Under the pieces are notes generated by a model. It saw only the letters and a program-made list of their open reading frames with translations. It did no database searches and was not told the DNA's origin. Shown here piece after piece: positions 1,133 through 37,300 of a DNA stretch of 64,000 nt; the stretch's first letter is position 1, and each line of letters begins with the position of its first letter. The stretch lies in the NCBI GenBank assembly GCA_036785375.1, contig JAWMAR010000731.1, positions 496,001 to 560,000 of the forward strand, written 5' to 3'. Position numbers and translations under genes: made by a program. This DNA comes from Leucoraja ocellata. Taxonomy: Eukaryota.

Positions 1133-1387
1133 CTGGACTGCTCCTTCCGAAGTAGTGACCGTGATTTGCTCCGTCCATCTCTCTTATCGTGCGATCGGGA
1201 GCATGAGCGGGACACGGACCTACTGGAGCTCCTGGAGCTGCTCTTGCGCCGGGGGCTGTAGGAAGAGCTTTTCTTTTTGTCCGAGTTGTGGCTGCTGGGT
1301 TGTTCGTGCTTCCTTGGAGACCGGGTGCGGCTCTTGTTCCTGCTCGTGTAATGCCTTCGATGGTGACGACTTGAAGCATGCCTTAAC
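1133..1387 (-). CDS. srrm3: srrm3 exon (255 nt), RS-rich: LRHASSRHHRRHYTSRNKSRTRSPRK...SRSLLRKEQS
   Basis: Acceptor ctttggttttctaaag|, donor ag|gtcagt, phase 2-2, open RS-rich frame. Confidence 0.9.
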
Positions 1388-4300
1388 CTTTAGAAAACCA
1401 AAGAGATGTTCTTAATTTTTGTATTGTGATCTGACGAGCCTAGGACAATGGGGATATGAACAGATCTTCTGCCTCATCCAACTTTGCCTCTACATCTGTG
1501 CATTGTGCATCGCGGACACTCCAAGCAGAATTTTAATGGACTTGCATGTCCTGGATTCTCTAGGAAATAATTATTCATTTTCTGGACATTGTTGCACGCA
1601 AAAGGAAAGGTAGTGATGATATTAATAATGTGTTTTTTTCTGCACTTTTTGAACAGCAAAATACAGACAGTTCTGCGATAGTGTGATAGCTGCATTCCTG
1701 AGAATCTTTGCATTATAAAAACTCGAGCTATCAAAGCAATTATGTCAACAGGGATCAAGGGGTATAGTGTTTCAGATACCAAAGATTTTCAAATATAAAG
1801 TTATTTTTAATAGGTGTAAGTTTATTTATGTTACTGCAATTTGAAAATACTAAAGGCGGAATGTTACCCTTTTTATTAGAATATCCATAAGTGTCAATAA
1901 AAGCAAACATTTGTCCATTTCAATGAATACTGGTGGTGAATCGACAGACTGCATTCTTAAGAGACAATGGTATCTGATTATTGTGGGCAGGTGAAATGGA
2001 AGCAGTTTTCTCCTCCCTAGACTCTTTTTTTCCAAGCTTTACCGGCATGTCAATTTAAAATGCCTTTTAAGTAGTTCTCTAGTTCCTGGTCAAAATAGCA
2101 TTGTAACCAATTCCACCCAGGTAATAGAAATAGCGTTCCCTAATTCATCAATCTTGTCATACCTGATTCGCTTTGCAGAAGTATGTATTGTAGGATAATT
2201 TAAAATGCTGTAAGGCTGAATGCAGTGAGGCTTGGCAGAAATAACATCTAATTTCCAAGAGCACCTCTGCCTGAAGCAGGAAGCAATACTCAATAGCCAG
2301 GTGACAACTTGGGAGAGGTGAACACCTTGATCAAATAAGAAAACAAAAATCTTACTGTTTTATGAGTCTGAAATGAGTTCACTTGGCCATCTTCCTTTTA
2401 GAGATGAATGCAAGGTTAAACAGATGCATCTATTAAGAGTGGCAATCCACATTTACTATTGGACAACTGGGGTGAACAGCAAAGGTACACAAAAAAGCTG
2501 GAGAAACTCAGCGGGTGCAGCAGCATCTATGGAGCGAAGGAAATAGGCAACGTTTCGGGCCGAAACCCTTCTTCAGACTGATCGGGGGTGGGGTGAACAG
2601 CAAACACATTTGCCAATTGAGCTGCATTCACAATCTGGATACTTTGCTTTAAACGTAAAATCTCAACTTTCTTGAGATTGAGTTAGCTAAATTTTGGCCA
2701 GCTTTTTGAGATGCTGAATGGGTCATTCTTTTTACTGTGACTGCAATTTAAAAAAAAAGACAGATACAGCGTGGAAACAGGTCCTTCACTGCTCTTATGA
2801 AGGGACAATTATTGGTAAAATCAGTCAATGGTGGCTTTGTTGAGGATTCTACAAAATTCCTGCAGCAATTTCCTCAACACTTATCTTTTGTATAAAGCAT
2901 GACTCTAACCAGTACATTTTTGATTCATATTGGCCAGTTTGACCAGAGCACTTCATGAAAGTATTTAAACTTTTCACACTGGCCGCAATGCCTTCACAAC
3001 ACCTTAAATAATAAAAATCAGGCATGAATCGAACACAAAGGAGTTTCAACAAAATGAAACCCAAACTCACAGGAGTGCTTATAAATAGTGTATCCTGCCT
3101 TTGGTTGAATAACTATGTGTTGTGGTTACATTTCTGCTAAGCTTGCTTTAATGAAGAAGAATATGATAACATAGACAGAACGTGGGTCACTGCAAGGTGG
3201 TATGAATAATTACATGATTGTATGGTGACTGTCTGGATATAAAAGTCTAGAAAATGGATTTGAACCATTTTTGGTGATCTCAGTTATGCTCTAAGATTAC
3301 ATGGATGTTATCCAACAAATAAAATCTGCTTACAAGGAAGCGTATCAGCATTGTTAAAGAGCTCACGCTACACCAATCACACAGGCTGCCATGTGTAAGA
3401 GGGAAAAGAGAAGACAGAAAATCTGCATAGGGGAGGGGGGGGGGGGGCAGCGCAGAGAATGGGATGGGGAAAACAGAGAAACAAGACTGAAATCAAGGGA
3501 GGAAAGTGGAAATCGTGGGGCCAGGATGGGAAAATAATTTCAAATGAAAGCGTTATGGAGCTGCTGATTGGGCTTCATGTTATATTCACGCCCCAAACTG
3601 CACATAATTATTGGGACTAGCATTTATCACTGTTGACCACCTGCTAAAGGGCAGCATGCATTAATCAATGTGGCTCCCCCTCTCTGTGTGTTGTACTTTT
3701 TGTTTTGCTGTGATACACAAACATCATAGGCCACAGCCTTGCTATTCAATGTCTGTCAGTGAGTCATAAGATGAATGTTAATGATTTCATAGCATGTGAA
3801 ATATGATGGAAAATGACACTTGGAGGGTGAATCATGACAGGAAGTGAATAACTTACGCACATCGTACAGACTGCAGGTAGCCACAGATGTTTATTTTCTA
3901 AACCAATTTCCAAGATAAGTTTGTCAATGGACTGCAGTTTCACCAATACTAAGAGGTTGCATTTTGGGTGCCAGGTCAATTTATTGGTATTAAGGGAATC
4001 GAAATGTGGTTATAGCTACATTTCCATTCCGTCATGTCCAATAACCCAGAAAACCAGATTTGTAACCTGAAGTACAGGTTCCATGGAGGGGAGGAGTACT
4101 TTGGGGCATGTCAACACTGAATTACCTAAAAATGGGTGGACAAAAATTTACGACAGCTGTGGATGCAGAATATGAAGACCGTGTCTTTTTAAAAGCAGAA
4201 AAATAAGAGAGGACTAACTTCTTTGCTCGTGTGCTTTTACTCCGGCCTGACGTATGACGCGATCGTGACCGACTGCCGACACTTCCCGCAGAGTCACTGC

Positions 4301-7300
4301 TGAAGTCCGATTGACTTGGAGAGCGAGAAGATACTTTGTGAGCCGGCAGGATCGACTTCCGTCGGCTTGAGCCTCTGTGAGTGGATGCTGATCTTGACCT
4401 GGGTTTTGCGTTTCTTCCCTCAGTGGAGGACCTCCTGCTGTGGCCGGGAGATTTGGACCTGAAACTCCTGGAGTTATGCTTCGAGTGTTTGCCTTCCTTT
4501 GCCTTTGGCGACTTTGATGCAGACCTGGGCTCTGCTCCTGGGGACAATGACCTGGAGTCCGTGCTCTGCAGCAGGAGAAAAAGGCTAACCTTAAAAGAGA
4601 CCCTGACATATTAGCAACACCATTTTCCAATTCTTGCCATATCCCTATGACACAGCCTACGTCAATATTTTATCTAACACAGTCCTCTACAGTGCAGCTC
4701 ATGCAAGATTTTGCATGCAAACCAAAAACTAATTGAAAATAAAAACCTGGAATTGGAAAAAATAAATAAAGAGTCAACAAAAGTTTAAGAAGGAATAGAA
4801 TGGAAGAATAAATAAACTTTAAAAAGTGAGCTTAACAGGTTGCTGTAATTTTTGAGGAAAGGACAAGTTTTCTTACAATTCCTGGTTTAAAAAAAACAAG
4901 GTGAAGATAGACAACTTGACTGAACAGCACAGAAATGGAAGGCAAAAATTGAAAAAAATTCACAAATGTATTAATTATCACTCAAACAAAACTCGCTGAA
5001 TAAAACTGTTTTCTTTTTGTGCTTTTTCCTGCAGAGAACTGCTCATCTGTCATCAGCGACCCAGATTATTAATTTTTTTTGTACCCCCGTTTGGTTAACA
5101 TACACTTACCAATCAGGTAGCATTTCCTCCATTAGTAGGTAAGGTGTGAGGAAAAAGGGAAAAGCGGGGCAACATAAGTGCATCATTAGAGTCACAAAAT
5201 GCAAGAGAAAAAAAGACACAAAAAAGCCCTTTCCAAGTAGTGAAATATGAACAATGTATGAAATTAAGAATGTGCAAAGGAATTTTTTAATACTACAATA
5301 ATGCAACTGCTTCAATGCCTAAGTATTGATGCACTAAAATAAGGCCAGTCCGGAGTCTCTGGGCTACCGTCCACATTAGGGAAATATATGCACATGGATC
5401 ATCAGATTATACCTGTAAAGCTTAGAGCAGGAGGTTGTAAGAAGCAAGGTGAAATGCAGAATGTCTAACTATGCCTTAAATGCAGAAATGGGCCCCTCAG
5501 CCTCAGCGACCACTAAGACTTCTTCAGGGTTGAACAGCCAAAGGGAAACATTTTGTCGACAAGTTTCAGAGTTGAAGTTAACAATTGGAGTCCAAAATCG
5601 TATATTTTTATGTTCAATGTTTTTTTAATCGCAAAGCTATGTAGATTGGTTCAGGGCAATTTAATCGATCAAATCTTCTGAGTTTCCCCTTGATTCTGGA
5701 GAGGATAGAATATTGTTCTAGAAACCAGTCACTGCTATTTTCTAACCAGAATTTATGTTACTAAGATTAAACCATTCTCTACTAATTCTCCTAGTTAATA
5801 TGCCCTGGTTATAATTGTTGCCCTGACCCATATCCTCAAAGTTGGATTCCAGACGACATTGCAAGTTAATTGTTGAAATAACAAGGTTTTTTTCATTTTT
5901 GAAATGCTTCTATTTGTACAACGTATTTGTAAAATAAACCATCCCAAGATGCTTCATAAAGAATGTGGTTGAGTTGAGGTCTGACTGGTTTAACTGGGCC
6001 CAGCTTGATGATTTTGCACTGCCGATCTTAAGTCTGTGCCAGTTTCCAGATGTGTTTCTAGAATGTCAGCTTGGGGCCTTTCGTCTTCTATGTTAAAACT
6101 GTGGTCCATTATAAGTGACCCGATTTCCTTTCCCAAAAGGAAACATGCTGTAAACATTCAAACACCACACGTCCCAAAAGCCCTATTTCATCATAATAAC
6201 TCTACAACAACAACCATCAATTAGCTTAATTGTTAATTATGTTGATGGAAGATCCCAAATTACCTTCTGGTACAGTGATGTTCTGTGGTGGGCATGTTTT
6301 GCAGTGCCATCTTATGAAAAGCACAATATAAAGTGGTCAATACTTTATTTTTTTTTGGAATAATTAAAAAAATAAAAAATAATTTAACATTACGAATTAT
6401 CTGAGCAATAATTTATTTTTAAATTTTATTTCTCCATCAATTTCTTTTCAAGCCTTTAGAATAGCATAGGTGCAAGGAATATGTATTTAGGTTTCGATCA
6501 GTTGCAACTACTTAACTGGCACCAGCAAATGGGAGAGAACTAACACAGCTCCAAGTAACCCTCCCATCCACTATTGTACTGAATGTTCCTTGAATTACAG
6601 AATAAGAAGTGATGGTCTGGTGGCCTAATGCTGCCATTTTATATCGCATCAAATACTTTGGAATGGAAAAACAAGATGTTTATTTGTAAATTGTAAATCA
6701 TGATTCTTTTAAAAGAGATTACACATTGGAAATGTTTACCTATTCACTTGGCTTTCATTGGGTTTCAAAAGTGAATGGTTGCAAAATGACCCTATAAAAT
6801 TGAACTGGGATTGTACACACAAGAACATCAGAGCTTTCAGTGGGCAGGGATTATTGTTGTTGAAACACATCTAACTTGATTAACAAATTTCAACCTCACT
6901 TATTGATAACATAAAAGAAAGTGATTAAGAAATAACATTACAAAAACTATCTTAAAAATTGGAAAGCAGAATTGGTTTCAGGACTACTTGTAATGAGGAT
7001 TGTTTTGCTTTTCTATTCATTGTTCCCTGCCTTATCAGGAATCTATAATATTACAAGAGGTCAGGAGCTCCAGGCAGAAGCATAGATGCCTCTCCTGCTC
7101 TGGACCAAGTTCATGGGCAACGTTACAGAAATTCTTTTTGACCATTTTCATTTTCTCTCTCCCTAGAGACAGCATTTTGAATACTTGGTAATGTAGCAAA
7201 GCAACACCATTCCATGAGACCCATATCCTATTTGCTTCATCCTGGAGCTTTGATATCCGTTTAGTTAAACTGCATTATGAACACCTTTGGTCTCCCATAA

Positions 7301-16300: not shown

Positions 16301-19300
16301 GGAACATGGTTATTGCATGGTGTGTTTTGTTTATGAATTCAGCCTCTGAGATAGATGAAGATGTCGTTTAATGTTCCCAGGGTGTGATGTCAGTTACAGT
16401 TTTTTGTATATTACAGTTTTTTCGATTATCGATAATTCGCTGTATTTTTTGCTAATAGTTTCTGGCTAGTGGAGAAAAATTGTAAATGCCCTATGACATC
16501 CATGAATTAGATGTTGCACGTAGAGGTGAATTTACCACTAGCCTTGTCCCAGTCCTATGATTATGCCAGTTCTGTGGACATGGTTCGCTTGAACTTCTTG
16601 CTATGGATGTGGAGAAATGGATCGCAAATCGAAGATTCTAATATTATGAGGCACAGGATGTAGGAAGGAATGTCCAGGAATGTTCTAGTATGCTGGAAGA
16701 TCAGCTCCTATAAATATCACCACTTCGGTTGTTTGTGTGCGTTATGGCATAACTTTATCTTAACTAATTAAATAATTGCTAGACAGCAGAGTTATCTCTC
16801 AGATTGAAGATTAAATACAGGAAAGCAATCGAGCTACAAGAATAAAATGGATAGAGCTTCTGGGTGAAGAGAGCTAGGGCTGGTGAACATGGTGCAGCAA
16901 GTCTGAAACGCATGTGCAGTAGTGGCACCTGGAGAGACACACGGATGGCACCTTGAATAAGTAAATATCATCATGTTTTGCCAAATAAGATGGTATCTGT
17001 TGTATACCCAGTAAGAAAACGCAGACAGCTGCGTTTGAGAATGCTGCAACTGGAAATTGGTGCAGTGTATCTCTTCATCATTTGTTTCCACCAGCTGTAT
17101 CGGTATATTCAAAGTGGTGGCAGCATGAGGAAACACAATAAAATAATCATATCTCCCTAAAAGTTTTACCCAAGGAGGCGTCCTTTAATCGCTAACATGT
17201 GGCTTCAGATTGTTTCTCTTGTATTTCGTTTCAAGATACAGGGAAAATGGAACACACCAATGGAATACATATTAGTTTGGCTAATCCCTGCTCCCTTTGA
17301 GCCAAAATGAAGCTGACAGTAATCACAAAATCTGCAGGGGTCTGATCATATTTCCAGACTGTTGAGCCTCTCAAACAGCACACTTGAATCTATGGCTTGC
17401 ACATTACAATTCATTACAATGGGGATGGGTTGCAAAAACGAATTAAGATTTCATGAAACTTAAATTTTAATTGTCATAACATCCTGCTTTGGACCAAAGG
17501 TCTATCAGTCCCATCCCAATGTTTAACCTATATAGGTTTTTTTCCTTTGAAGTATTTGACTTTCTTAAATTTACTTTTGCATCTGTTTCCAACCATTTTT
17601 CAAACAGGTATTCTGATCAAGAAATCTTAATGCAGACACTTTTTTGTCTCATGTTCTCTTGCCATTGTTAATCAATTTATACATTTGTCATGCGAGCCTC
17701 CTGTCAGTAGAAATAATTTCTCCTTTACCAAGCCATTCATAATCTTGACTACTTCTTTTTGCACTTCTAGCCAACCTTTCCCGCTCAAAAGGAAATATCA
17801 GTTTAACTTATTTATTTGAACAACTGAGGTCTCTCATCACTACTTGAAAATATTAATACTATCATGCAATCAAATTTTGTGAAAGGCTAGTCGGTTCTGA
17901 CTATTCTCCCTTACCAATTGGATATAAATTTTCACTAAAGCCTTTTACGGAATGATCGCTAGTTCAATAGACAAATTTCTGGATACAATTAATATATGGA
18001 GGAAGGACATTCCAAGATTAATAAGGTACTCTCCACTAAATTGTTCATAGGATTTGGAATTTTCTATCACAAATGAAGCTTATTGCTAATGAACTGCACA
18101 TGCTGTTCAGATGGTAATGAGAAATAGAAAACAATGATGGGAATGGAGAGCACACACAAGATTCTGATTGGAAACTGGCTTCAAAACTCCCAGAAGAGAG
18201 AGAGGAAAAGAGAGGGGGCTGGATAGGAGAAAAAGAGAGAGAAAAGAGGAAAACCAGAGAAAAGAAGGAAAAGACTACATACATCCTGTGATCTGTTTGG
18301 TGGATGTCTGTGTCTTGGACTGTGTCTGTCACTCCACGAAGGACCCTTGTGTCCATTCTCTCTGGGAGTCACTGATCTGTTGCGTCGGCCTTGCAGAGGA
18401 GATTGACTGGGTTCGTTTGTGTCATTCTTGGGCTGCCTGGAAATAGCACTGCGTTTGCTTTTGGAATGTGATGTTCTACGCTCTGAAGATGGGCTGTGGG
18501 AACTGGAAAACAAATAAAAGCAAGTGGCTGATTAAGTGTAACCAATAATCTCTTTGCTGAGTTCCAACATTGGTCAGTGGGTGAACTTTGATTAGTTTTT
18601 AGTCAATGAAGAATAGAAAGCTTGTAATATACTGTTGCACACAGTGCATTTGCGAATACAATTCAAGTACATTGATGACCATGCTCCAGCCTCAATCACT
18701 CCACACAGCTTGCTTCATTGTAGTACCACCTAATCAGAAGGCTATTAAACTTCACCCTTAACCTGTCATGCCACTGTTAAATTTAAAAAAAGTTAATGTG
18801 GCACAATCTGGCACTTGCACATTAGGTATTTGTTGATAGTTTATTTTCTCCTATGCTTGATGAACTTAAGCCCAAATAATATTGTGATCAAATAATTAAC
18901 TAAATGCAGATAAATCATCCATGGCATTGCTGTTTTATCAACAATACTTGGGGAAGTATTACAGCAAGAAAGCATTAACTTATAGAAAATGGGTATTATA
19001 AGCAAGGCATCTTAATGTTGTGAATTTTGCCAGTAACTTCACATAAATATCCATGTTTTGGAATTTGATATTTAAATTGTGATATTAAATATTTTTTGTG
19101 TCTTTACCAATTAAACATTTTTTTAAAATTACAATGTCAGGAATAATCAAAAACAATCAATGGCCTTGGTGGCTTTTAAGCTTTGAGTGAGTGGTATAGA
19201 TGGCAATAGTGAAGCCAAGCAGCATTGTGCCCCAGATGCGCCTTCTATTAAGGGCATTGCCAAAAGTTCAGAGGGATTTTTTAAATGGAGGTGGTTCCAG

Positions 19301-22300
19301 ATATCACTGGAATGAGTTGCTGCAGCTTAGGACCTAACTGTTTGGCTCCAGGACCTTGGTGCTGGTGTGATTGCCTTTCAATTTGCCTTCAGATCAATAG
19401 GCTTACAGGCAGCAGGTTGTGAAGTGGAATCCAGGCCTGTGTATCAGTAAATAGACACAAAAAGCTGGAGTAACTCAGCGGGACAGGCAGTATCTCTGGA
19501 GAGAAGGAATGGGTGACGTTTTGGGTCGAGACCCTTCTACAGAAGATCATCTTCTCCAGTATTGTTGACAGGTTTTAAGACCTGCATGTTAATAGAAAGG
19601 ATACATGGACGCAATGCAAATCTGACGTGAAAGCTTGGGGAAAACATTTAATTTAGATCGCTATTGAAAGTATAGGCTGGCAGCCGTACTTTATCTTTAT
19701 GTTCTATGCCAATTTAGAATCGTTGGTCTAGAGATGAGTACATCTGTTAAAACTGCCCTTGCTACACATGATGAAATAAATGGTCAGATAGGATCAAATG
19801 GAAAGCAAAATGACCTGGGTGCCGACATAGCCTATACACATTTTAGATAGATACATTTTGTCCTTTTTCACACTCTGTTGTTATTTATTTATGAAATCAT
19901 GGTAATATATTAATATATTAATAGGCATATTAAAAAAAATAATAAATGTGTGTTAATCAGTTTTAACTATTATGTTAAGGAACAAAGCAATGATTTCTGA
20001 AGAAGGGTTTTGGCCCGAAACGTTGCCTATTTCATTCGTTCCATAGATGCTGCTGCACCTGCTGAGTTTCTTCAGCTTTTTTGTGTACCTTCGATTCTCC
20101 AGCATCTGCAGTTCCTTCTTAAACATAAAGCAATAATAATGTCTCTCTCCCTCCTCCTTCTTTTCTTGATTCCTCACACTTTCTATCTTTTGTCTGTATC
20201 TTTCTTACTCTTCATCCCCATTTTAATCATTCTCAGAACGCATTTACCCATTGCAGCAATCTGCTCTCTAGGTGGGCTGTAATATAAAGTGCCAAATCAC
20301 TAAACTTCCAGTGTTTCATAAAACAGAATTGGGTGTTACATATTATTTATTCTGTTGCAAGTTTTAGATGTTTAACAGATGGGAGTTACAAATTAAGAAT
20401 ACTGTAGTAATTTAATCTCATTTTGACTAGGATCATGAAATCGGCAGTATGGAACCTTTGAAAGCACTGCTGAATATCTAATTCTATTAACTGCTGGGTG
20501 CTGCATTGAACAGATGGCCTTTGTGATAAAACTTGTAACGTACTGCAGAACACGAGTAATATCTAACCTAAATTAGAAAAGCTCCCATTCTAATTATGAA
20601 TGGGGATAGGTAATGATGGTAAAGTTAACATTGGGGAATTAGGTTTACAGACTGGAAGTCAGAATTTGTATAATAACATAACACCTAGTCTGTTAATATT
20701 CAGCTGAATCTGTGGCATGTAATACTGACCTGCTTAGAGATTTGGAGGAGCTGCGTATGGACGATGCAGACACACTGCGGGAGCTGCAACAGCTTCGTGC
20801 TTTGTGCGCTTTCCGTGGTGGTGACTCACTGGGTGACCTGTTGAGGAAAAGAGGCTTGCATGAGAAATAGACCACACTGAGCAATGTCATTCCTGAGGAT
20901 GTTATCAGCAGCGGATATTTCAGTATAATATAGAATAAGTAAAGAGTATCATTAGCAGACAATCAGAAAACAGCCCTTCAAGCAGAATCTACCTTTCAAT
21001 TAAATCACGACTGATTACTTAATGTATCACAGCATTTCATTATTATTTATAATGTGTAAAAAAAAATTCTATTAATTACACAAAAAACCCCATTCTTTAT
21101 GTTATGAGTACAGAATGCAAGAATTTAGGCCACATTTCCTTAAGTTAGGAAGATTAAAGCATAAATATTTCCTCTGGTTGAAGAATTTAGAATAAATACA
21201 CGACTTTATGAATCAGGCGAGATGTCAGGAGGTATTTCACAATAAGAATATTACAAATGGAAATTTCTCCTCAAAAAGCTGCTGCTAATTCATAAATCTT
21301 ACAATTTTTCTATTCAAAGGTACTCAAAACCTATCTGATCACTTGTTCATAAACCTCTTTTGTGATTTAGTATTACATTAGTTTTATAAGACATCTGCAA
21401 AATGCTTTGAGATGTTTCACAACATTGAAGGGCCTGTCCCACTTATGTGTCCTTGGCAAGCAAATTACGTGACCTCGTGGTCACGTTGAGGCGTACGGGC
21501 ATCGTATGGCCGTGCGGGGCCGGTCCCACTGAGAACCATGGAGGGGTATGTAGTTGTGCGCGACATCGTGCGGGGCTCTGAAATTTTTGTAGCGAACAAA
21601 ATCTTCGCGCGCCAACGGCCTGTGGCGTAACTGACAGCCAATGTGGGACAGGCCCAAGACCCTGGCGCGACGCAACGTCTCACCTTCAACAGCAGCAGAA
21701 GCAGGCAAACGATCGCCGAGCTCGGCCTAGGGCTCACGGCCGTTGCGGTCCGGATCCGCCCCCACTTCTACTCCCAGAGCGGGGCCAAGAAAATTGAAGA
21801 TGGACACAAAATTGTGGCGTAACTCAGCGGGACCGGCAGCATCTCTGGAGAGAAGGAATGGATGACGTTTCAGGTCAAGACACTTCTTTCAGACTGAAGA
21901 AGAGTCTCGACACGAAACGTCACCCATTGCTTCTCTCCAGAGATGCTGCCGGTCCCGTTGAGTTACTCCGGAAATTTGTGTCCGTCTTCAAATTACGTCA
22001 CGCTCTCCAGACGGCTGTGCGGGCGAATGACGTTGCGCGCGACCTTCGCGGGACCGTCGCGCCTCAATGCGACCATGAGGTCGCGTAATTAGCGTGCCAA
22101 GGACACGTAAGTGGGACAGGGGCTTAACGGTATTAAAGCAAATAGTAGTTGTCTAATCATTACGCTTATGAACACTGAACTCCATCTGCCAGTTGCCTCA
22201 ACCATACATTTAGGATTATTGTGCATTGACTATTTGTATTATTGTGCATTGGGTTGGTCTTATTTACAAATCTGAACACTTAGAAGCGTGTCTTTCTTTA

Positions 22301-25300: not shown

Positions 25301-28300
25301 GGAAATAACAGCGCAAAGTGAGGTGGGACAGAGGGGCGATCAAAGTGAGGTGGGTGATAGGTGCAACCATTGGTTCATGGGAGGGGATGAGGTGGGGCGA
25401 GGTGAGGAGACACCTAGAAGGACAGGTGAGTGTGTGTGGAAGGAGAACACTGGGGTGCTGGTGTGTGGTGTAGGTTTGGAAATTAGAACAATTATTTTTC
25501 ATTCCATTGCATTGTAAACTACCAGGCAGAATATGAGTGGTGTTCCCCAAAGTTACAGCTTTTGGTGGCATGGCAAGCCAACATTTCCACTCCCACACTG
25601 AACTGTCTGCCCTTGGACTTCTCCATTGCTAAGGTCAGGCCAACATCCTCATTGGCCTCTATCCCATCTGCCCTCGCACTCCTATTTATTGGAAATCTTT
25701 CCGATCCCCTCTCAATCCTGATGCAGGATCTCAACCCAAAACATTGACCCACTGAGACCATCTGCCATTCTAATTTATGTTCTAGATTCCAGCATCTGCA
25801 GTGTCTTTTGTCTTTAAACACGAAAGCATTGAGCACTATGCTTTATGCTGGTGTCCAATTAGGCTATCTGTTATTTTGGTTTTGGTTACGTAAATCATTT
25901 TGGTTATGCAAATAATTTGAATCCAACATGAAAGAGAAAAAGTAGCATTTACAACAGGCAAATAAGCAGGTGGAACCTATTCTAGGTAACAAATACATTG
26001 TGATGGTGGGCAATAACATTCGCAATTCCTTTGTGTACTTGCGTCCAATTTGTCAGGAAAGAACTTTATTCAGTTGGTCAATTTTAGGTAACCATTTGAT
26101 ATATTTGATTAGAATAGTTTCTTGAATTTTTATTATTATGCATTTATTCAACATTTTAAATTAGGCATTAGAACTATAGAAATGAAAAGAAAAAGAGAAA
26201 AGCTAAAAAGACAAATGTGGGAAACTGAGCTCCACAGGGCTGTGTAATTAGATTATTTGGCATTATCATGAACTCTGCGCCAAACTCTTATAAGATTATA
26301 TGAATAAGAATCACCATGGACCAACATCTAGCATTCAGGCCATCTCTGTGAGCAAGAAGCAGCTTATATCAAAGGCTGAATCCTGAGCCGCTAGGATAAT
26401 CATTAATAATTTAAACATACCGCCTTCTTTGTTTGCTTCTGTCTTTGCGTTTGGTTTTAGGGCTTGTAGACCTACGGAGAAAATTAATAAATAAAAATCA
26501 GGGGAGTAAAATTATATAACCCAATATGTGTGTAGACTTCCTTAGGAGTACTTTAGATTGCAGACTTCCTTCAGAGCAGATTTCAACAGTATGTGTGGTT
26601 AAAATACCTCCCCCCCCCCCCCCCCCCAAGAGAATAATACTGCTACTCATTATAATAAAAATGTGGCAAAATTTGATGAACAATATACTTTACCACAATT
26701 TCCTTGCAACACCTGCATGAAGTACTTCCAGGTCAAAGGGGAGTTGCTTCCATTCATGAGATGCAGCATTAAATTTCATGAATGGAACAATTCTATTAGA
26801 CAACAATTTTAATTGGATTCATGACCACCCATTATGATGGACATTTACCATTTAAATTGCGACATAATTCACGCAATTAAGATATTCAAGAAGGTATAAT
26901 CTTTATTTATTCTTGCTTGATATTTACGGTAAGTAGTTATTGGACTAAAACCTGGGTGCAGAAAATGTTGGGGCAGGAACAATCGGGGTTTGCTGAAGAC
27001 AGTACCAACATGTTTTTGTATAAAACTATTTCTGAACTTCTGAAACGTATGGCTTTAATTTACTGGGTATGTCACCTAATGTCAGAGTCCCCTAATACTT
27101 TGGAAATCAAATCAATTCCTACAGAAGAGGTCATAGAGGAAACGGACAATCGTTTAGGATAGCTAAATATAATTAAACCTAGTCACAACATGATTTTAAA
27201 AGGTAAATTATGTTTGGCAAATCTACTTGAATTCTTTGAGGACATAACAGGGAGTTGATGGAGGGGAACATGTAGCTTTAGTGTAAATTCACAAAGGGCA
27301 TTTGACAAGATGCCACATAAAGGCTTGTGCATAAATTAAAGGCCCATAGAACCAGAGAATGTGTGTTAGAAAGGACTGTAAACTGGCTGTCTCATAGAAA
27401 ACAGAGATAGGCCCAAAATGCTGGGGTTACTCAGCGAGACTAGGCAGCATCTCTGGAGAGAAGGAATGAGTGACGTTTCAAGTCAAGACCCTTCTTCAGT
27501 CTGGCAGGTAGTGACTAGTGGGGTGCGGCAAGGCTCGGTGCTGGAACACCAGTTATTTTACAAGATATAATAACGATTTAGTCGATGGAATTAAATGGAA
27601 AAAGATGGAACAGCTCCAAGTTTACGAATGACACAAAGCTGTGTGAGCTGCAAGGAGAATGCTATGAGGCTGCAGGGTGACTTGGATAGGATGAGTGAGT
27701 GGGCAGATGCATGGCAGATGAAAATAATGTGGATAAATGTGAGGTAAATGGGTATGCTTGTACATCAGTCACTGAATGCAAGCATGCAGGTACAGCAGGC
27801 AGTGAAGAAAGCTAATGGCATGTTGGCCTTTATTGCGAGAGGATTTGAGTTTAGGAGCAAGGAGGTCCTACTGCAGTTGGACAGGGCCCTGGTGAGACTG
27901 CACATGAAGTATTGTGTGCAATTTGGGTCTCCTAATTTGAGGCAGGACATTATTGCTATTGAGGGAGTGCAGCATATTTTCACCAAGTTAATTCCTGCGA
28001 TGGCAGGACTGACATAGGATGAAATAATAGGTCGACTGGGCTTGTATTCACTAGAATTTAAAAGGATGAGAGGCAATCTTATAGAAACATATAACATTCT
28101 TAAAGGATTGGATAGGCTGGATGCAGGAAACAAATTCCCAATGTAGGGGGGAGTGCAGAACCAGGGGTCACAGTTTAAGAAGAAGGGGTAGGCCATTTAG
28201 GACTAAGATGAGGAAAAACTTTTCACCCAGAGAGTTGTGAATCTGTGGAATTTACTGCCACAGAAGAGAGTGGAGGCCAATTCATTGGATGCTTTCAAGA

Positions 28301-31300
28301 GATATTTAGATTTAGCTCTCAGGGCTAATTGAATCAAGGGATATGGGGAAAAAGCAGCAACTGATTTTAGATGATCAGCCATGATCATATTGAATGGCAG
28401 TGCTACCTCAAAGGGTCGAATGGCCTACTCCTGCACCTATTTTTCTCTGTTTCTATGTTTCTATTTTGTGGCTATCTTTCATTTAAACTAGCATCTTCAG
28501 TTCTTTCCTACTCATAGAAAACAGAGTTCAAATAAATATGTACTTTTTCACTGGAAGGAGGTAACTAGTGGAAAACCTCAGGGAGCAGTTCTTGGCCGCA
28601 ATTGTTCATGATTTATATTAATGATCTGAAGGGAGATGTTGTAAGCAAAATTTCCAAATTTGTTGATGGTCCAAAAAATAGATGGAAGGCCGTATTATGA
28701 TACTGCAACAGGATACAAGTATATCGAGTGAATGGGCAACATATTGGCAGATGTAGTTTAATGTGTGGAAGCTGGATTGGTAAGAGGCAGGTTATTATCT
28801 AAATGGAGAGAGACTGGAAATGATTGAAGTTCAGAGAGACATAGGTGTAATAGTAAGAACTCAAAAAAGAGTTAGGATCTCAATGGAAGGACTACAAATG
28901 AGAAGGCAAACAACATTTTGTCTCTCAAGGGATTGGAGTTTAAAAAAGGTAAGTTTTATTGCCACTTTATAGGATGATGATGAGGCCTCCTCGACTACTG
29001 CATACAGTTTTAGTCCACTGAACTAAAACTGAAGAAATATTAACTCTAGAGACATTACAAAGGATATTCACTGGCTGATTCCAGGAATGAGAGGTTGTCC
29101 TATTAATTTAGACTAAATATTTTTTGACATATTCCTTGAAGTTTAAATTCCTCTTTGGGAATAACACAACAGCCATAAATAACATTGTTCAAATTATTTG
29201 ATAATCATGCATTACATAACATAGAGGTAATTATTTTGATTTGCCACTGTCCACAGCCAATAAAGGTTTTTCTCAAGCATACCATCCTGAAATGTTTCAC
29301 CTTAGCAAGTTTGCAAAGGAGGTACCACAGGATATGGAACTCCATGTACTTGTCACACCCAATCAGTACCCCGTTCCTGGCTTCTCCCCATATCCCCTGA
29401 CTCCGCTGTTTTTAAGAGCCCTATCTACCTCTCTCTTGAAAGCATCCATTTATTTATTCCCTGATGGAAATTTCCCTTGTCTCAGGCTGAAAGGAATTCT
29501 CTCTATGTTTGTATTTTACATGTCTACAACAGCTTTTACACATTTTTAAGCTTCTTGTTAGATCTCAAATTCAACGTTCTTATTCCTTATTAATACCTCA
29601 GCCCTCCATTGCCAAATTTAGATATTTCCTCAATGTTCAAGATTTTTCTTTTTTGGCAGCATTGTATGACTTTATCTTTGATCCAATATTACCTTTAAAT
29701 GTTCCTGTCAGCCATGGTTGGACCAGTTTACCTATTTATTGTTAGTGCCTTACAAGAGATATATAATTTGTAGTAGTCAATGAAATAATGAATTCATTAA
29801 TTATTTAAATTGTCTGTTTACTGTTGTACATTTAATGTAGACTCCCAATTTACCACAATTTGCTTGTGCCTCATACCTTTGTAGTTTGCTTTGTTTAGAT
29901 TTAATACTAATTTTGGACTAAATTAAATAAATTCCCATCTCTGTATATAATTCTACCATATTTCCATCAGTCTTCCCTAAAATCCCCTTAACCACACAGT
30001 TATTTAGTTAACTTCTCACTGTAAAATACTGGATCTAAATAACCTGTTCTCTAATTGGTTTATTGACATATTTATCCATAAAACAATCTTGTACAAAGTC
30101 CTGGGACAAAGAAGATTTCTGCAGCATACGCGACTAGCTGATGCCCCTAATCCCAATAGCACTAGATGTGTGATCATTGACAGTAGGCAGCTAATGAACC
30201 TTTACAATGGTATCCAATGCTTACCTATGCTTACCAATGCCTCCTCTTTTTTCGGGAACCTGAATCAGACCCGTATAAGATGAGAAGTGACTAAGTGTAG
30301 GGGTTTACTCGATGTAGCCTCAAGCACAATGCTCTTTGATTGCTCCATAAAGAAAATACTTGCAAAATAAATTTACGATTCCATGTATCAAGGATACTTA
30401 AACAAGTGGTTTATTTCAAAGAGATTAAGACATTCTCCTAGTTTTTTTTTTATCACCGGATCACAACATTAGGCAATTATTGTGGGTCACTTTTTCCATT
30501 TTAGAAGACAAAAATACAAAGACCATTTTCTTTAGTAAGAAGAATTAACACGAGCATTTGGAAAAACCAATGATGCACAATGTTCATTTGGATATCAAAG
30601 AGCTGCTGCACAATTTCTAAGGTCCTACCTTTAATGTTCTGAGAAGAAAGGTTACTGACCTGAAATGATTACCATCTCATACCACAATTGCTGCCTGACC
30701 TGCTGAGTATTTCCAACATTTTAGATTTAATATATAATTTTGCATGTGACTTAAGAGTCAGAGAGCCATACAATGTGGAAACAAGCCCTTCAGCCCAATA
30801 GCCCACACCGGCCAACATGTCCCATCTACGTTACTCCTACCTGCCTGCGTTTGATCCATATCCCTTTAAACATGTCTTATCCACGTACCTATCTAAATGT
30901 TTCTTAAACATTGCGACTGTACCTATGTCAACTACCTCCCCCGCAGCTCCTTCCATACAACCACCAACCTTTGTATGAAAAAGTTAGCCCTCAGGTTCCT
31001 ATCACATCTTTCCCCCCTCACCTTAAACCTATGTGCTCTGGTTCTCAACTCCCCTACTCTGGGCAAGACACTCTGTGCATCTACCTGATCTATTCCTTTC
31101 GATGGATGATTTTGTACAACTCTATAAGATCACCCCTCACACTTCTGCACTCCAAGGAATAGAATCCTAGCCGGCTCAACCTCTTCCTACAGCTCAGGCA
31201 CTCGAGTCATGGCAACATCCTCGTAAATCTTCTCTGCACCCTTTCAAGCTTGATAAAATCTTTCCTATAACAGTGTCCAAAACTGAACACAATAATCTAA

Positions 31301-34300
31301 ATGCGGCCTCATCGACGTCTATACAACTGCAACATGACCTCCCAACTTCTATACTCAATACTCTGAGTGATGAAGGCCAATGTGTCAAAAGCCTTTTTGA
31401 CCACCTTATCTACCTGTGATGCCACTTTCAACACACTATGTACCTGTACTCCTAGATCCCTCTGCTCAACAACACCCCCCCCCAGAGCCCCACCATTCAT
31501 TGTGCAGGTGCTGCCTATGTTAGTGCTCACAAATTACCCCATTTCACATTTCTCTGTATTAAATTCCATTAACCATTCTTCAGCCCATCTGCTCAGCATG
31601 AGTTAACTTCCACATCACATATGAACAAGTCGTTGTGTGCCTGAGATGACTAAATAATAAATCTGTGTTGAACTGGGAAGCCACAAAGGTTAAATCCCGT
31701 TACTTACCTGGTATATGTTGGACATCCCACTATCATAGTTCTGTATTCAACCAAATAATCTCTTCCAACAGCTAATCTCCTTGATCACCAACTTTCTGAT
31801 CTCCAAACTGACACTGGCACTGACCACAGATCTCCTATTAGACCCTTATTGATCTTCAATCCCTACTGGACTCGAGATGTGATCAGACATCTTACTGCGG
31901 CCTCCTTCCCCTGGGAAGCTGAAATGCTACCTTGGGAACCATTTAAATTTGTAGTTGCAGACCACAACTTAAAATTAATATTGGCATGCCTTGCAACAGG
32001 GAGCCAAAATAACAGAAACAACTGTCCATGGAACTCGATGGTACAAGAATTATCCGGACCCCTCACTTTTCCTCGTGTGCAAGGCTTTAAAAAAGATTGG
32101 CTGGAAACAGATTCAAAATTGCAGTGTCATCTATTATTGATGTTATATAGGTTGCTTTAACTATATCATTCAGATAATGTGCTGTGGCCAAGGATGTGAG
32201 AAAGACATTACGATTTTCTCCAGGGATTGTGCAGACGGTCGATTCTGCATTAGATGTGCTATATACCTGGAGGGGTCTGGTATGACTACAGAAGAACAGA
32301 AGCAACTCCACCTGTCTCTCTTGTGTTTCTTCCCACTCTTCTTTTTTCTCTCTTTCCGTGATGATGAAGAACTTTCGCAGCTATGAAGAAAAACAAAACA
32401 TTTTAAATATAACAATTGTCTCTTTCTGAAAATACTTGCATCTAGTACAAGAAGAACCAACCAGGAAACAATGCGTCAGAAAAATAGCTTGCTGGCGTTG
32501 CAATTTTATTTACAGCAGAGGAAGACAAATCAGCAATTCTCAAGCTAGACTTCTCTACCCCTGGTGTCTTTTTTTGTGGCTTTTTATGTAAGCAAGTTTA
32601 ATGTGCTGCGTTTCACAAAATTGCCCGAGCCACATTACATTATAGTCATAGCTTCCCAATAAATGAATGAGTGGGAAGATGGAAATAGAATTTGCAGAAG
32701 AGCAAAACAAAATTAAAGTTGTTCAGGGCGTCAGGAAGTTCCTCTTTGTGCAAATGCTAATGGAAATCTGGAATGCTGACTTCACAAAGCACTGATGAAA
32801 CAGGGAGTACAAAAGTGAGCTTGATAGCTTGTATATAGAAGTGTATTAATGGATTTGGAACTAGAGAAGTAGACAGAGTTACGATGTACATCAGTTTCGA
32901 GGTACTAAATGGAAGAACAGACTCGCAGAATATAAACAGACAATCATGGACCAGGTTAGGGAGAAAACATTAAGGTTTACAGGTTGACTACATGCATGAT
33001 AATTGGAAATGCTGAGAAAGCAGTGAAACAGATGAGCAAGAGTGATTGGTAAAGAGAGAAAGCCAAGTTTCAGTCTGTAAACCACTCAAAGCACAAGAAG
33101 CCATCATGCTATTAAAACAGAAAATGTGCTGTGTCATATTGTAAATTGTGGGACAAATATCCCCATAGATAAGCAGCAAGCAGCATCAATAAAGCTCATG
33201 GGAATATCAATTGCTTGGTATTTATAGAGGAGAGTGTTTCAGGACTGCACTGCAAACAATTTTTAAGAAGGTTTTGTCTGTAATAAATCTAGTGAGGACA
33301 TTGGTTGTACTGAAACTTTGCAGTGAAAGCAGACCAGGATTGAATCTAAACAAAAAGCTGCACTGTTTGCCATGTTTTTACATTTGAACTGCGAAAAGAA
33401 CCCCATATTAGCATTATTAGTGGGGTAAGCCATTTATGATTACTTCCTACATTGATATAATGGAAATAAATGAAAGGGCATCACGTAACAAATCTTAAAA
33501 AGGTAAGAATTATCTGTCATAATTTCAGACTACAATGATCTTCCAAAACCATACTGAGTCAATGGTACAAAGGCATTCTACACCCTTTAGTTTTAGTTTG
33601 GTTTTGAGATACAGCGTGGAAACAGGCCGTTTGGCCCACTGAGTCCACACCAACCAATGATCACCTGTTTACTGGTTCTATCATAGGAACTAGGGACAAT
33701 TTCTAGAAGCCAATTAACTTACAAAACATGCATGTCTTTGAAATGTGGGAGGAAAACGTAGCAACTGAAAAAAGCCCATGCATACTCCGTATAAACAGCA
33801 AGATTGAACCCAGGTCTCTGCCGCTGTAAAGCATCAAGAATTTTTTTTTCACCCTTGTTGTAGAAATCTAGAATCACTTTTATTAAAATGCTGTGAACAC
33901 TTGGTCAATTGGAGCTATCAAGTCAGATATATAGATTCTTGTTCAGTAAGCAATCAAGAAATAGGGACTCAAGGTGTAGGACATGTACACTCCATTTTTC
34001 TGTTTTAAAGTCTTTTATTTTTATAAATTGAATATCTATAAATACTTTTTACAGATATCTATGTAGTTTTATACAATATATTAATGTCCAGTCACAGTAA
34101 CCAAACACAAAAATCCGCAATATACGGGGTTGAAAAAGGAACAGGTTTTTATGTGGTCAAAACTAGTGTTGAAAGGATTAAACCTGCACTACAAGGGAGA
34201 TTCTACACTTAGCCGCACTCTGATGAAAGGTGGCTTTCATAAATAAAACGTTTGAATGAAATGTTCTCCCCTTGTAAATCTTTTTTCAAGATTTAATTTA

Positions 34301-37300
34301 TGGGATTTTTTTATACATTTAAAAAAACTATCAAATATAAGAAACTAAAAACACCAGGAACTGCAGATGCTGTTTTATTTATTAAAAAAGGGACACAAAG
34401 TGCTGGAGTAACTCAGCAGGTTAAGCAGCATCTCTGGAGAACATGGATAGGTGATGTTTTGGGTCCGAATGCTTCTCCAGTCTCTGAATCTGCAGAAGGG
34501 ACCCGGCCTGAAACGTCCATGCTCTCCAAAGATGCTGCCCGACCAACTCAGTTGCTCCAGCACTTTGTGTCCTTTCTTTATACAAGAACCGAGAATATTT
34601 TTTTGCCTGCTTTTATTGCCTGCCCCTAACCACCTGCTGTTTACTTTTCACTTCTTCAAAGTCTGAAATGCAAAATCCACTGTTAGGTGTCACATAAGAA
34701 AGGATTTTGAAATAAAAGAGTTAACAATTTTGAACCCTGTGCAGTTTCATCTGGAAAACTAGGTGAGACGATGTTACCTTTTGGAACCTTACTGAAGCTT
34801 AATACAAACCTCCACCTGTCAAACATTGCATTCCATTGCAGCAAGATTTTTTGGAAATATGCACCAAAAATTCAACAAGCATCAAGAAAAAAGACAGATG
34901 GTTTCCTCTTGATGAATGCTTTGTACATGGATTTAATCATTCCAAGAAGGAATAGCACTTAAAAGATGCTATGATGCCTCAGTAGGTCTACTCTGGGCTC
35001 AGAACCTGAAATGACACCTCATTTTTGAAATACACAAAAAAAACCCAACTTTGTTTAATTTAATAACACAATCTACTTGTATGGTAGGTATCGACAATTC
35101 ATTATGACTAATCGTGAAGCTTCCTATCCTTTTCATGGCATCCTTATTGTACAACACCAAAAGACATTTACCGGATTTTGTAGTGCCCCGATTTCTTCTT
35201 CTTCTTCTTCTTGGGTGGTGGTGAGGGAGAACTGCTTGATTTCCTTTTCTTACTTCAGTGGCATGAGAAAAAATTATTCAGATATAAACACAATAAGTTA
35301 CTTAATGTGGGATAAGAAATCTTTACATAGGATATACAATATATAATCAGACCATATTCTCCCTGCAGATAAGATACACCTTCTCTTTAACTACTCTATC
35401 ATCACATTAATTCTCGATCATGGAAGACATGTCACAGATGCAAACTCTCAATTAATTGATCAAGACAATATAGCTTTGTCAAAGTGATGCACACAGCTGT
35501 CTAGACAGTGTTAGGTATTGTGTCAGAGCAAAAAAACACATATATTGACATACACAAGATTGGTTCCCTTCTTTTTTCACGATTGGGACCTAAACCCCAG
35601 ACAACAAAAGGTTTGTTACTGAGTAGAGACCAACTGATTCCCCACAGAAGAGGAAGGTGAATCTGCTTCAGACACATCCTATCCCTATGTCCCCTTTAAA
35701 ATTATTCTCATGTGTGCAAATTAACAGAGACAAGTGCCACGGCATGTAACAGATTCAAGCCTCATTATTGTGCTGCATATTATACTGACCTGCGCCTTCC
35801 CAAATATTGTGCTGTGAACACTAGCATCACAGAAACCAAGAGGGGAAGAGATGGTTTCACTTAACCTTTTGAATTCATTGTTGCCCAGCAAGAGATTTAT
35901 GCTCCTGTTATTTGTTCATGAAGGAAATAAAAATCTGCCCTATGTTCGGAGTTTTTAAATGTTTACCAGTGACCTCACCTCAAGACCCAATCTTCATGAG
36001 GGACTGTGCTTGATGAAGTGAGCAGAAATTTGAAAGCTGATATCAGTAAAAGTATTACACATCAGTAAAACTATCAGTGACTATAAACATTACACTGGGT
36101 GGGACATTGCAACCTTCACGTGGTCCACCCTGCTTCGACGAATGCAATCAATCTGGCGTGCACAATCAAGTAAGATCAAATAGAACAAGTTGTCCTACAA
36201 TTTTACGCTGTGCACGTCATATGCAAGAAGAAGAATTACACAAACTTCTTTGTTTCTGCATTGTGTAATTTTTCCATATTAGTCCTCCTTCTTTAGGAAA
36301 TGCAGGTTCCCATCTCTCATCATAGATGTCTCCTCGGTACCACGTAGCCCCGCCCTCGCTCCCCCTCTCCCGAGTCACAACAGAGACAAACTCTCCCTAG
36401 TCCTTGCCTTTCACCCCATCAGCCGTTGCATACAATACATAATCCATCAACATTTTCGCCACCTCCAACAGGATCCCAACACTAATCAAATCTTCCCATC
36501 TCCACCCCTTTCCGCCTTCCGCAGAGACCGTTCACTCCACAATTCCCGGGTTAACTCATCCTTTCCCAAACCACCCCCTCCCCAGGTACCTTCCCCTGCA
36601 ACCGCAGAAGATGCAACACCTGTCCCTATTCCTCCTCCCTCCACTCTGTCCAGGGACCCCAGCAGTCCTTTCACGTAAGGCAGAGGTTCACTTGAACCTC
36701 CTCCAACCTCATCTACTGTATCCGTTGTTCAAGATGTGGACTCTTATACATTGGTGAGACCAAAGGTAGACTGTGCAATCGTTTAGCTGAAAACCTTCGC
36801 TCAGTCCGCCTGAACCTACCTGATCTCCCGGTTGCTAAACACTTTATTCTCCTTCCCATTCCCACATATAGATTGGTCTCCTCCATTGTCTAAATGAGGC
36901 TAAACGCAAATTCGAGGAACAGCATTTCATATTTCGCTTGGTCAACTTCCAACCCAGTGGTATGTATATTGATTTCTCTAACGTCAGGTAGCCCCGGCAT
37001 TCCCTCTCTCTATCCCTCCCCACCCAAGTCGCACTAGCTTCTCGTTTTCACCCAACAAGCAGCTAACAATGGCCTGTTTCCTTCATCATCATTACCTTTT
37101 TGCTTATCTTTCATTCATTGTTCTTTATCTCTCTACATCCCTTATCTCACTTGTCCCTTACCAGTCTGAAGAAGGGTCTTGACCCAAAACGTCACCCATT
37201 CCTTCTCTCCAGTGTTACTGCCTGTCCTGCTGAGTTACTCCAGTTGTTTGTGTCTAACTGCAGATGCTGGTATACACATATTAAATAAGAAAATGCAACA

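What the first reader, a model, noticed from the sequence alone, without database searches (positions are those of the whole stretch)
30211..30300. Conserved exon with CGG acceptor and duplicated donor: possible compensated frameshift
Seen: the SDSGSRKKRRH exon (30235-30270) is preceded by ...tatacGG, not AG. Its donor region is a 10-bp tandem triplet (gcattggtaa gcataggtaa gcattggata) giving two GTAAGC donors 10 nt apart. The nearest upstream AG (exon start 30290, +20 nt) combined with the second donor (30225, +10 nt) gives a fully canonical 66-nt phase 2-2 exon with no stop. It encodes a new peptide HFSSYTGLIQVPEKRGGIGKH(R) read in a shifted frame from the same DNA. Mixed site choices frameshift or hit TAA. 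Inference: a rare GG acceptor, exon skipping, exon rescue by compensating frameshift, or a base error.
Basis: partly seen in the sequence, partly recalled or inferred. Interest (0 to 1): 0.7.

Follow-up and report, generated by a model that had tools for sequence, protein, structure and literature searches.

The report
Decaying SRRM3 exon with broken acceptor
In this cartilaginous fish and its close relatives, a 36-base exon of the neural splicing-regulator gene SRRM3 has GG instead of the normal AG splice signal and has picked up different damaging changes in different relatives, so it is likely skipped without breaking the protein, an ordinary kind of exon loss.

Summary
The gene is SRRM3 (minus strand), intact and canonical at every other splice site. 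The GG acceptor is no base error: the genome's second allele and 4 of 4 DNA runs laid (another sample of the same organism, three related organisms) all carry it. Beyond the GG the lineages differ. The second allele lacks the 10-bp unit, so the 66-nt 'rescue' exon would be 56 nt and frameshifted. Organism D has lost the donor, gained one base and has a stop in the shifted frame. Organism F has gained one base. Five substituted sites in 36 nt (four amino-acid-changing) and one indel fall in an exon that is near-invariant from chimaera to mammals. This fits a dying symmetric exon; skipping gives an open 609-aa protein with both domains. The RNA lay did not show the decisive junctions, so actual splicing is untested.

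The parts
30235..30270 (-). SRRM3 36-nt symmetric (phase 2-2) exon, SDSGSRKKRRH; the exon in question ('exon X')
   Evidence: 11 of 11 residues identical to Narcine and Callorhinchus SRRM3; only copy in the intron between the flanking exons
30271..30273 (-). CGG at the ancestral acceptor position (G instead of A at -2, 30272)
   Evidence: same GG in the second allele and in 4 of 4 DNA runs
30211..30240 (-). 10-bp imperfect triplet holding donor 1 (after 30235) and donor 2 (after 30225)
   Evidence: identical in runs X8 and X2, one unit shorter in the second allele, donor 2 absent in X12 and X17
30291..30293 (-). upstream TAG acceptor candidate (exon start 30290, 20 nt upstream); use not shown
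   Evidence: CAG in organism F
30260..30262 (-). internal CAG|G acceptor candidate (exon start 30259), frameshifting with both donors; use not shown
32312..32380 (-). upstream coding exon (69 nt, phase 2-2), U2-type donor CAG|GTGGAG
   Evidence: joined to the exon ending 35172 in 142 reads of run X24
26421..26471 (-). downstream coding exon (51 nt, phase 2-2)
35172..35252 (-). coding exon (81 nt)
20730..20837 (-). coding exon (108 nt)
18283..18502 (-). coding exon (220 nt)
4219..4565 (-). coding exon (347 nt)
1133..1387 (-). coding exon (255 nt); the two cwf21 exons lie beyond the window's high end and the two SRRM_C exons beyond its low end

Best explanation
The 36-nt SRRM3 exon has a GG where an AG acceptor would stand, shared by this organism and three relatives, and it is likely a dying exon that is skipped in frame. 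Inferred sequence of events: an A>G change at -2 in the common ancestor disabled the acceptor; because the exon is phase 2-2 and a multiple of three, skipping only removes 12 residues from the basic low-complexity linker between cwf21 and SRRM_C; freed from selection, the exon and its donor then changed differently in each lineage (10-bp unit gain or loss, 1-bp indel, donor loss, amino-acid changes). The doubled donor is slippage in an already repetitive GCAT..GCAT stretch. Shown: the GG, its sharing, the lesions, the open skip ORF. Inferred: ancestral AG, order of events, actual skipping.
For: GG present in both alleles of the assembly and in 4 of 4 DNA runs laid, each with a contig across the site and all its differences accounted for (tables 3, 4, 8). 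Lesions, read by hand: organism D donor GT>TT (30234), +1 nt (30246), stop in the shifted frame (30262); organism F +1 nt, no second donor. Second allele: one unit shorter, K>N. Across these sequences 5 substituted sites in 36 nt, 4 amino-acid-changing in the ancestral frame, against 1.9 expected from 16 sites in the 310-nt upstream flank (Poisson P 0.04). Between the two alleles 2 substitutions in 36 nt against 4 in 1131 nt of the 7 other in-window exons (Fisher P 0.013); genome-wide allele mismatch here is 1398 of 112085 nt. The exon is conserved elsewhere: of 153 homologues, 124 have the upstream anchor; 107 match the exon pattern strictly, 7 more with small variants, 4 skip it cleanly, 6 are truncated or different; none of the 107 has W at position 12. 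Skipping gives an open 609-aa ORF with the C-terminal motif; the 12 residues lie between cwf21 (59-102) and SRRM_C (481-544) of the closest homologue. Precedent that A-2G causes skipping: SLC26A4 c.919-2A>G (PMC8987850, start of abstract in the listing).
Against: No skip junction was seen: one search showed 15 joints and hid 273, none of the shown ones involving 32312, exon X or 26471. Depth in X24 (organism B, same GG and triplet) is compatible with full inclusion of the 36-nt exon at the level of the next exon (upper bounds 33.8 and 19.5 against 18.2) as well as with intronic background. In the window and organism B the 11 coding residues are still perfect. In-frame canonical routes in one shifted frame exist in the window/B (66 nt) and F (57 nt), and F's upstream AG has the better CAG context. 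No outgroup genomic sequence was seen, so the ancestral AG is inferred. The statistics are post hoc, on few changes, and the lineages are not independent.
Confidence: 0.6

Rival explanations
1. Compensated frameshift: after loss of the acceptor, splicing moved to the AG 20 nt upstream, and a +1 (mod 3) change restored the frame, by the +10 donor in the window/organism B (66 nt) and by the 1-nt insertion in organism F (57 nt), giving a new peptide beginning HFSSYTGLIQVPE as a main or substantial isoform.
For: 66-nt form gives an open 631-aa ORF. Triplet shared by the window, X8 and organism B, with donor 1 weakened (TG|GT) and donor 2 consensus-like (AG|GT). F: upstream TAG became CAG and 20+37 = 57 nt is in frame (by hand). 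D has a new TAG 2 nt upstream that is also in frame with its +1 (39 nt). No change in 30255-30290 in F, B or the second allele.
Against: Second allele gives 56 nt, frameshifted, so it would be a loss-of-function allele of a gene whose zebrafish mutants die early under standard rearing (PMC12626424, passages). D has a stop in that frame and no donor. 4 of 10 AG x donor pairs are in frame anyway; two in-frame outcomes have a chance of about 1/9 to 1/4 (inference). Zero changes in 36 nt is expected about one time in four at the flank rate (by hand). The 40 nt upstream of that AG, where its branch point should lie, carry 5 changes in F, and another AG lies only 17 nt further upstream.
Confidence: 0.22
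2. The GG is a working non-canonical acceptor used with donor 1, keeping the 36-nt exon (R>W at its last codon in the window allele).
For: 621-aa open ORF; coding residues intact in window and B; good pyrimidine tract before the GG; X24 depth does not exclude it; precedent in BANP, where a GG acceptor derived from AG is used (PMC4176328, passages).
Against: 37-nt frameshifted exon from the GG in D and F, donor lost in D; competing stronger donor 2 would give a stop at 178 aa; upstream donor GTGGAG is not U12-like, whereas the GT-GG introns tabulated in PMC1557818 are U12-type; K>N and R>W changes.
Confidence: 0.1
3. The remnant acts as a frameshifting (poison) cassette through the internal CAG|G at 30259 or mixed sites, lowering SRRM3 output by nonsense-mediated decay.
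For: The internal AG keeps the old pyrimidine tract and truncates the ORF with both donors (178, 228 aa); donor weakening or loss in two lineages would fit selection against such leakage.
Against: No reads; no conservation of the frameshifted state (second allele and B gain another in-frame AG at +18); D has removed the donor altogether.
Confidence: 0.06
4. The GG is an assembly error or a private variant.
For: None found.
Against: Both alleles and four independent runs from four samples carry it.
Confidence: 0.01

Closest known systems
Vertebrate SRRM3 (closest found: Narcine bancroftii isoform X2, P0002)
   Same: Same exon order, cwf21 and SRRM_C domains, 79-100% identity per exon.
   Different: Here the SDSGSRKKRRHR exon has no AG acceptor; the annotated Narcine and Callorhinchus proteins include it. 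Four other annotated vertebrate proteins (P0006, P0028, P0040, P0096) lack it cleanly; whether by real skipping or gene prediction was not checked.
Exon skipping or loss after an A-2G acceptor change (e.g. SLC26A4 c.919-2A>G, PMC8987850)
   Same: Same substitution at the same acceptor position.
   Different: Fixed across several species and in a frame-preserving exon, so harmless to the ORF rather than a disease allele.
Functional GT-GG introns (BANP, PMC4176328; U12-type ARAF and SLC12A7, PMC1557818)
   Same: GG inferred to derive from an AG.
   Different: Those are supported by transcripts and, for BANP and ARAF, conserved; here the downstream exon is broken in 2 of 3 related organisms and the donor is not U12-like.
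Pairs of compensatory frameshifting mutations (PMC8935012, abstract and outline only)
   Same: A short stretch of an exon re-read in another frame with the frame restored downstream.
   Different: Here one of the two shifts would come from splice-site movement, not an indel, and use is not shown.

Membership tests
SRRM3 | N-terminal cwf21 domain (PF08312) | tested here: met
   first exon scores 34.2 bits, cut-off 23.2
SRRM3 | C-terminal SRRM_C (PF15230) region in the same ORF | tested here: met
   96% identity to P0002 residues 487-532 just beyond the window; ORF reaches it; Pfam was run on P0002, not on the spliced product
SRRM3 | Best hits named SRRM3, colinear exons | tested here: met
Pseudo-exonised (lost) symmetric exon | Fixed splice-site lesion | tested here: met
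Pseudo-exonised (lost) symmetric exon | Relaxed constraint on the exon sequence | tested here: met
   small numbers, post hoc
Pseudo-exonised (lost) symmetric exon | Skipped in mRNA | tested here: inconclusive
U12-type GT-GG intron | RTATCC-type donor at the intron's 5' end | tested here: not met
   donor is CAG|GTGGAG
Functional U2-like GG acceptor (BANP type) | Junction reads at the GG | tested here: inconclusive
Functional U2-like GG acceptor (BANP type) | Exon behind the GG kept intact in species that share it | tested here: not met
   +1 nt in D and F, donor lost in D; intact only in B
Compensated frameshift | Net frame restored in all carriers of the first lesion | tested here: not met
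   met in window, X8, B, F; not in the second allele or D
Compensated frameshift | Shifted form present in mRNA or protein | tested here: inconclusive
   no protein of this clade was returned

The most novel reading that the evidence does not exclude
After the acceptor was lost, related fish lineages independently rescued this SRRM3 exon by moving to an AG 20 nt upstream and restoring the frame in different ways (a duplicated donor in one, a 1-nt insertion in another), so the master regulator of neural microexons carries a new peptide read in a shifted frame from old exon and intron DNA.
Probability: 0.2. Interest if true: 0.62.

Novelty: new member of a known kind. Interest (0 to 1): 0.3.

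Why it matters
As read here it is a tidy, caught-in-progress case of exon loss in a conserved neural splicing regulator, and a warning for homology-based annotation, which would force the exon in through a GG. It suggests the 12-residue basic segment is dispensable. If the rescue reading were true it would be a rare splice-site-mediated compensatory frameshift, repeated in sister lineages and polymorphic within one species, which could be tested directly with one RT-PCR.

Tried and rejected
RNA lay (X6, X9, X24 of organism B, X22 of organism D; 26300-35400): repeats swamped the tables; the only exon joint shown is 32380-35172; 273 joints were not shown and the tool's two lays are used. X6 contigs cover the bins of the three neighbouring exons and give 0 in both bins of exon X (0.73 x 304 / 51 = 4.4, close to the 4.36 of the contig at the shown joint), but no contig join across exon X is listed, so this is not counted as evidence. 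X9 has 0 in the bin of the upstream exon; X22 has next to no depth on the exons. X24 depth bins fit either inclusion or intronic priming at A-rich stretches (30443-30454, about 29645-29655); no RNA holder listed on record, none for organism A; no evidence either way. Of 24 runs listed, 8 were laid; organisms C, E, G, H were not examined. Protein searches returned no protein closer than Narcine, so no annotated isoform of this clade could be checked. AT-AC or U12 reading: rejected, donor not U12-like; two RTATCCTT 8-mers lie inside the intron, and the nearer one is broken in D. A relocated second copy of the exon: none in the intron of either allele and only two genome matches for the 251-nt stretch. 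Paralogy of the two genomic copies: disfavoured, X8 has one clean contig across the site. One search's ORF test used a wrong start for the 35252 exon and is superseded. Literature: 'SRRM3 + skate + microexon' gave 0 papers; two searches listed nothing on this exon by title or abstract start; the library misses most subscription papers and no supplements were read. Earlier findings of the scan: none for relatives.

Full report
Observation. On the minus strand the 36-nt exon 30270-30235 is preceded by CGG and followed by a 10-bp imperfect triplet with two GTAAGC donors. The periodicity exceeds chance (0 of 2000 shuffles). There is also an internal CAG|G acceptor at 30259, and 4 of 10 AG x donor pairs between -20 and +30 are in frame and open.

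The gene. The first coding exon, about 59 kb beyond the window's high end, carries cwf21 and its best hits are named SRRM3, closest a batoid, Narcine. Eleven other coding exons map colinearly, all with canonical AG and GT sites. Skipping exon X gives 609 aa, GG plus donor 1 gives 621 aa, upstream AG plus donor 2 gives 631 aa; the four other forms tested stop at 178-235 aa. In organism B the gene is spliced: 142 reads with 58 starts join 35172 to 32380.

Conservation of the exon. Of 153 homologues, 29 lack my anchor motif; of 124 with it, 107 match the exon pattern strictly, 7 with small variants, 4 skip it, 6 are truncated or different. Chimaera and Narcine have the same 11 residues as the window. 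The exon is therefore old and normally constrained.

The GG is real and shared. The assembly holds a second copy on contig C8, 1.25% different over 112 kb, which I read as the other allele because run X8 has a single clean contig across the site. It has the same CGG, one 10-bp unit fewer and two substitutions in the exon. Four DNA runs were laid on 29950-30600. X8 (organism A, a sample other than the best holder) is identical to the window. X2 (organism B) differs at 4 sites and keeps GG and triplet. X12 (organism D) and X17 (organism F) keep the GG. The listed differences plus the inserted base equal the per-contig totals, so nothing at 30271-30272 is hidden. Contigs drop rare variants, so this shows presence, not allele frequency.

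What happened behind the GG (by hand). D: donor GT>TT, +1 nt in the A run, S>L in the old frame that is a stop in the shifted frame, and a new TAG 2 nt upstream. F: +1 nt, R>K, upstream TAG improved to CAG. Neither has the second donor. Window and B: AG>TG at donor 1 (R>W) and the second donor. Second allele: K>N. That is 5 substituted sites, 4 amino-acid-changing, and an indel in 36 nt, against 1.9 expected from the intron flank (P 0.04), and 2 in 36 against 4 in 1131 nt of other exons between alleles (P 0.013). The numbers are small and post hoc, and the tree could not be rooted, but nothing here looks like purifying selection on the old frame.

Mechanism. Most likely the A>G at -2 disabled the acceptor in the common ancestor (inferred; no outgroup DNA seen), skipping kept the frame and removed 12 residues of linker between cwf21 and SRRM_C (shown as an open ORF; use inferred), and the remnant has drifted since. 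The doubled donor is most simply slippage in a stretch that is already periodic in the short allele. Confidence 0.6.

The rescue reading. It deserves more than dismissal: the +10 donor (window, B) and the +1 insertion (F) both put the upstream AG in frame, and D's new AG is in frame with its +1, all in one shifted frame. Against it: the second allele is out of frame, D is dead, two in-frame outcomes arise by chance one time in nine to one in four, and the branch-point zone upstream of that AG is not conserved in F. Confidence 0.22. A working GG gets 0.1, a poison cassette 0.06, an error 0.01.

Direct test failed. The RNA lay covered 9.1 kb with repeats, which crowded out the exon joints (273 not shown). 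X24 depth allows up to 33.8 and 19.5 on the two halves of the 36-nt exon, or 16.4 and 12.3 for the 66-nt form, against 108 and 18.2 on the flanking exons, and intronic bins range from 0 to 8.3, so it cannot separate the readings. No RNA run of organism A was listed.

Literature seen. PMC4176328: passages (GG acceptor of BANP). PMC1557818: table passages (GT-GG among U12-type introns). PMC2882926: passages, not used for a claim. PMC8935012: abstract and outline. PMC12626424: passages. PMC8987850: start of abstract in a listing. Searches showed no report on this exon, judged from listings only. That SRRM3 regulates neural microexons is from the listings and the passages.

Verdict. Real feature, shared by a clade, best read as an exon being lost; a known kind of event in an interesting gene. 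Interest 0.3; the rescue reading has probability about 0.2 and would deserve about 0.62.

Noticed in passing
G000:C731 versus G000:C8:9295001-9415000: The assembly holds both copies of the locus, 1.25% apart with many indels; over 29950-30600 the C8 copy differs from the window at 7 substitutions and 2 indels, more than organism B does (4), hinting at deep polymorphism or introgression.
   Followed up: partly
window 32381-35171: The chimaera protein has about 9 residues (KKRKPGCER) between the 35252 and 32380 exons that have no match here; organism B joins the two exons directly. Possibly a second lost small exon or shifted acceptor in the same gene.
   Followed up: no
window 18283-18502: This exon lacks a 9-residue stretch present in Narcine.
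   Followed up: no
window 35172-35252: The Narcine X2 isoform lacks this 81-nt symmetric exon; a 9-nt indel between the two alleles lies just upstream of its acceptor.
   Followed up: no
window about 28990-30192: Organism D's contig leaves the window at 30192 with letters matching window 28990, suggesting a roughly 1.2-kb intron indel just downstream of its dead donor.
   Followed up: partly
window 30390-30397, minus strand: U12-donor-like GTATCCTT about 125 nt upstream of the GG; a second one lies further down the intron; broken in organism D, likely chance.
   Followed up: partly
window 30040-30078: A 39-nt piece matches a second, single-copy-depth contig in all four DNA runs; an old repeat fragment or small duplication.
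   Followed up: no
window 39574-39735: Run of 162 N, in an intron of the gene.
   Followed up: no
G000:C225:1407156 and 2008525, G000:C46:9631306: Three further cwf21 matches with equal scores, two on one contig in opposite orientation; likely SRRM2 copies or alleles.
   Followed up: no
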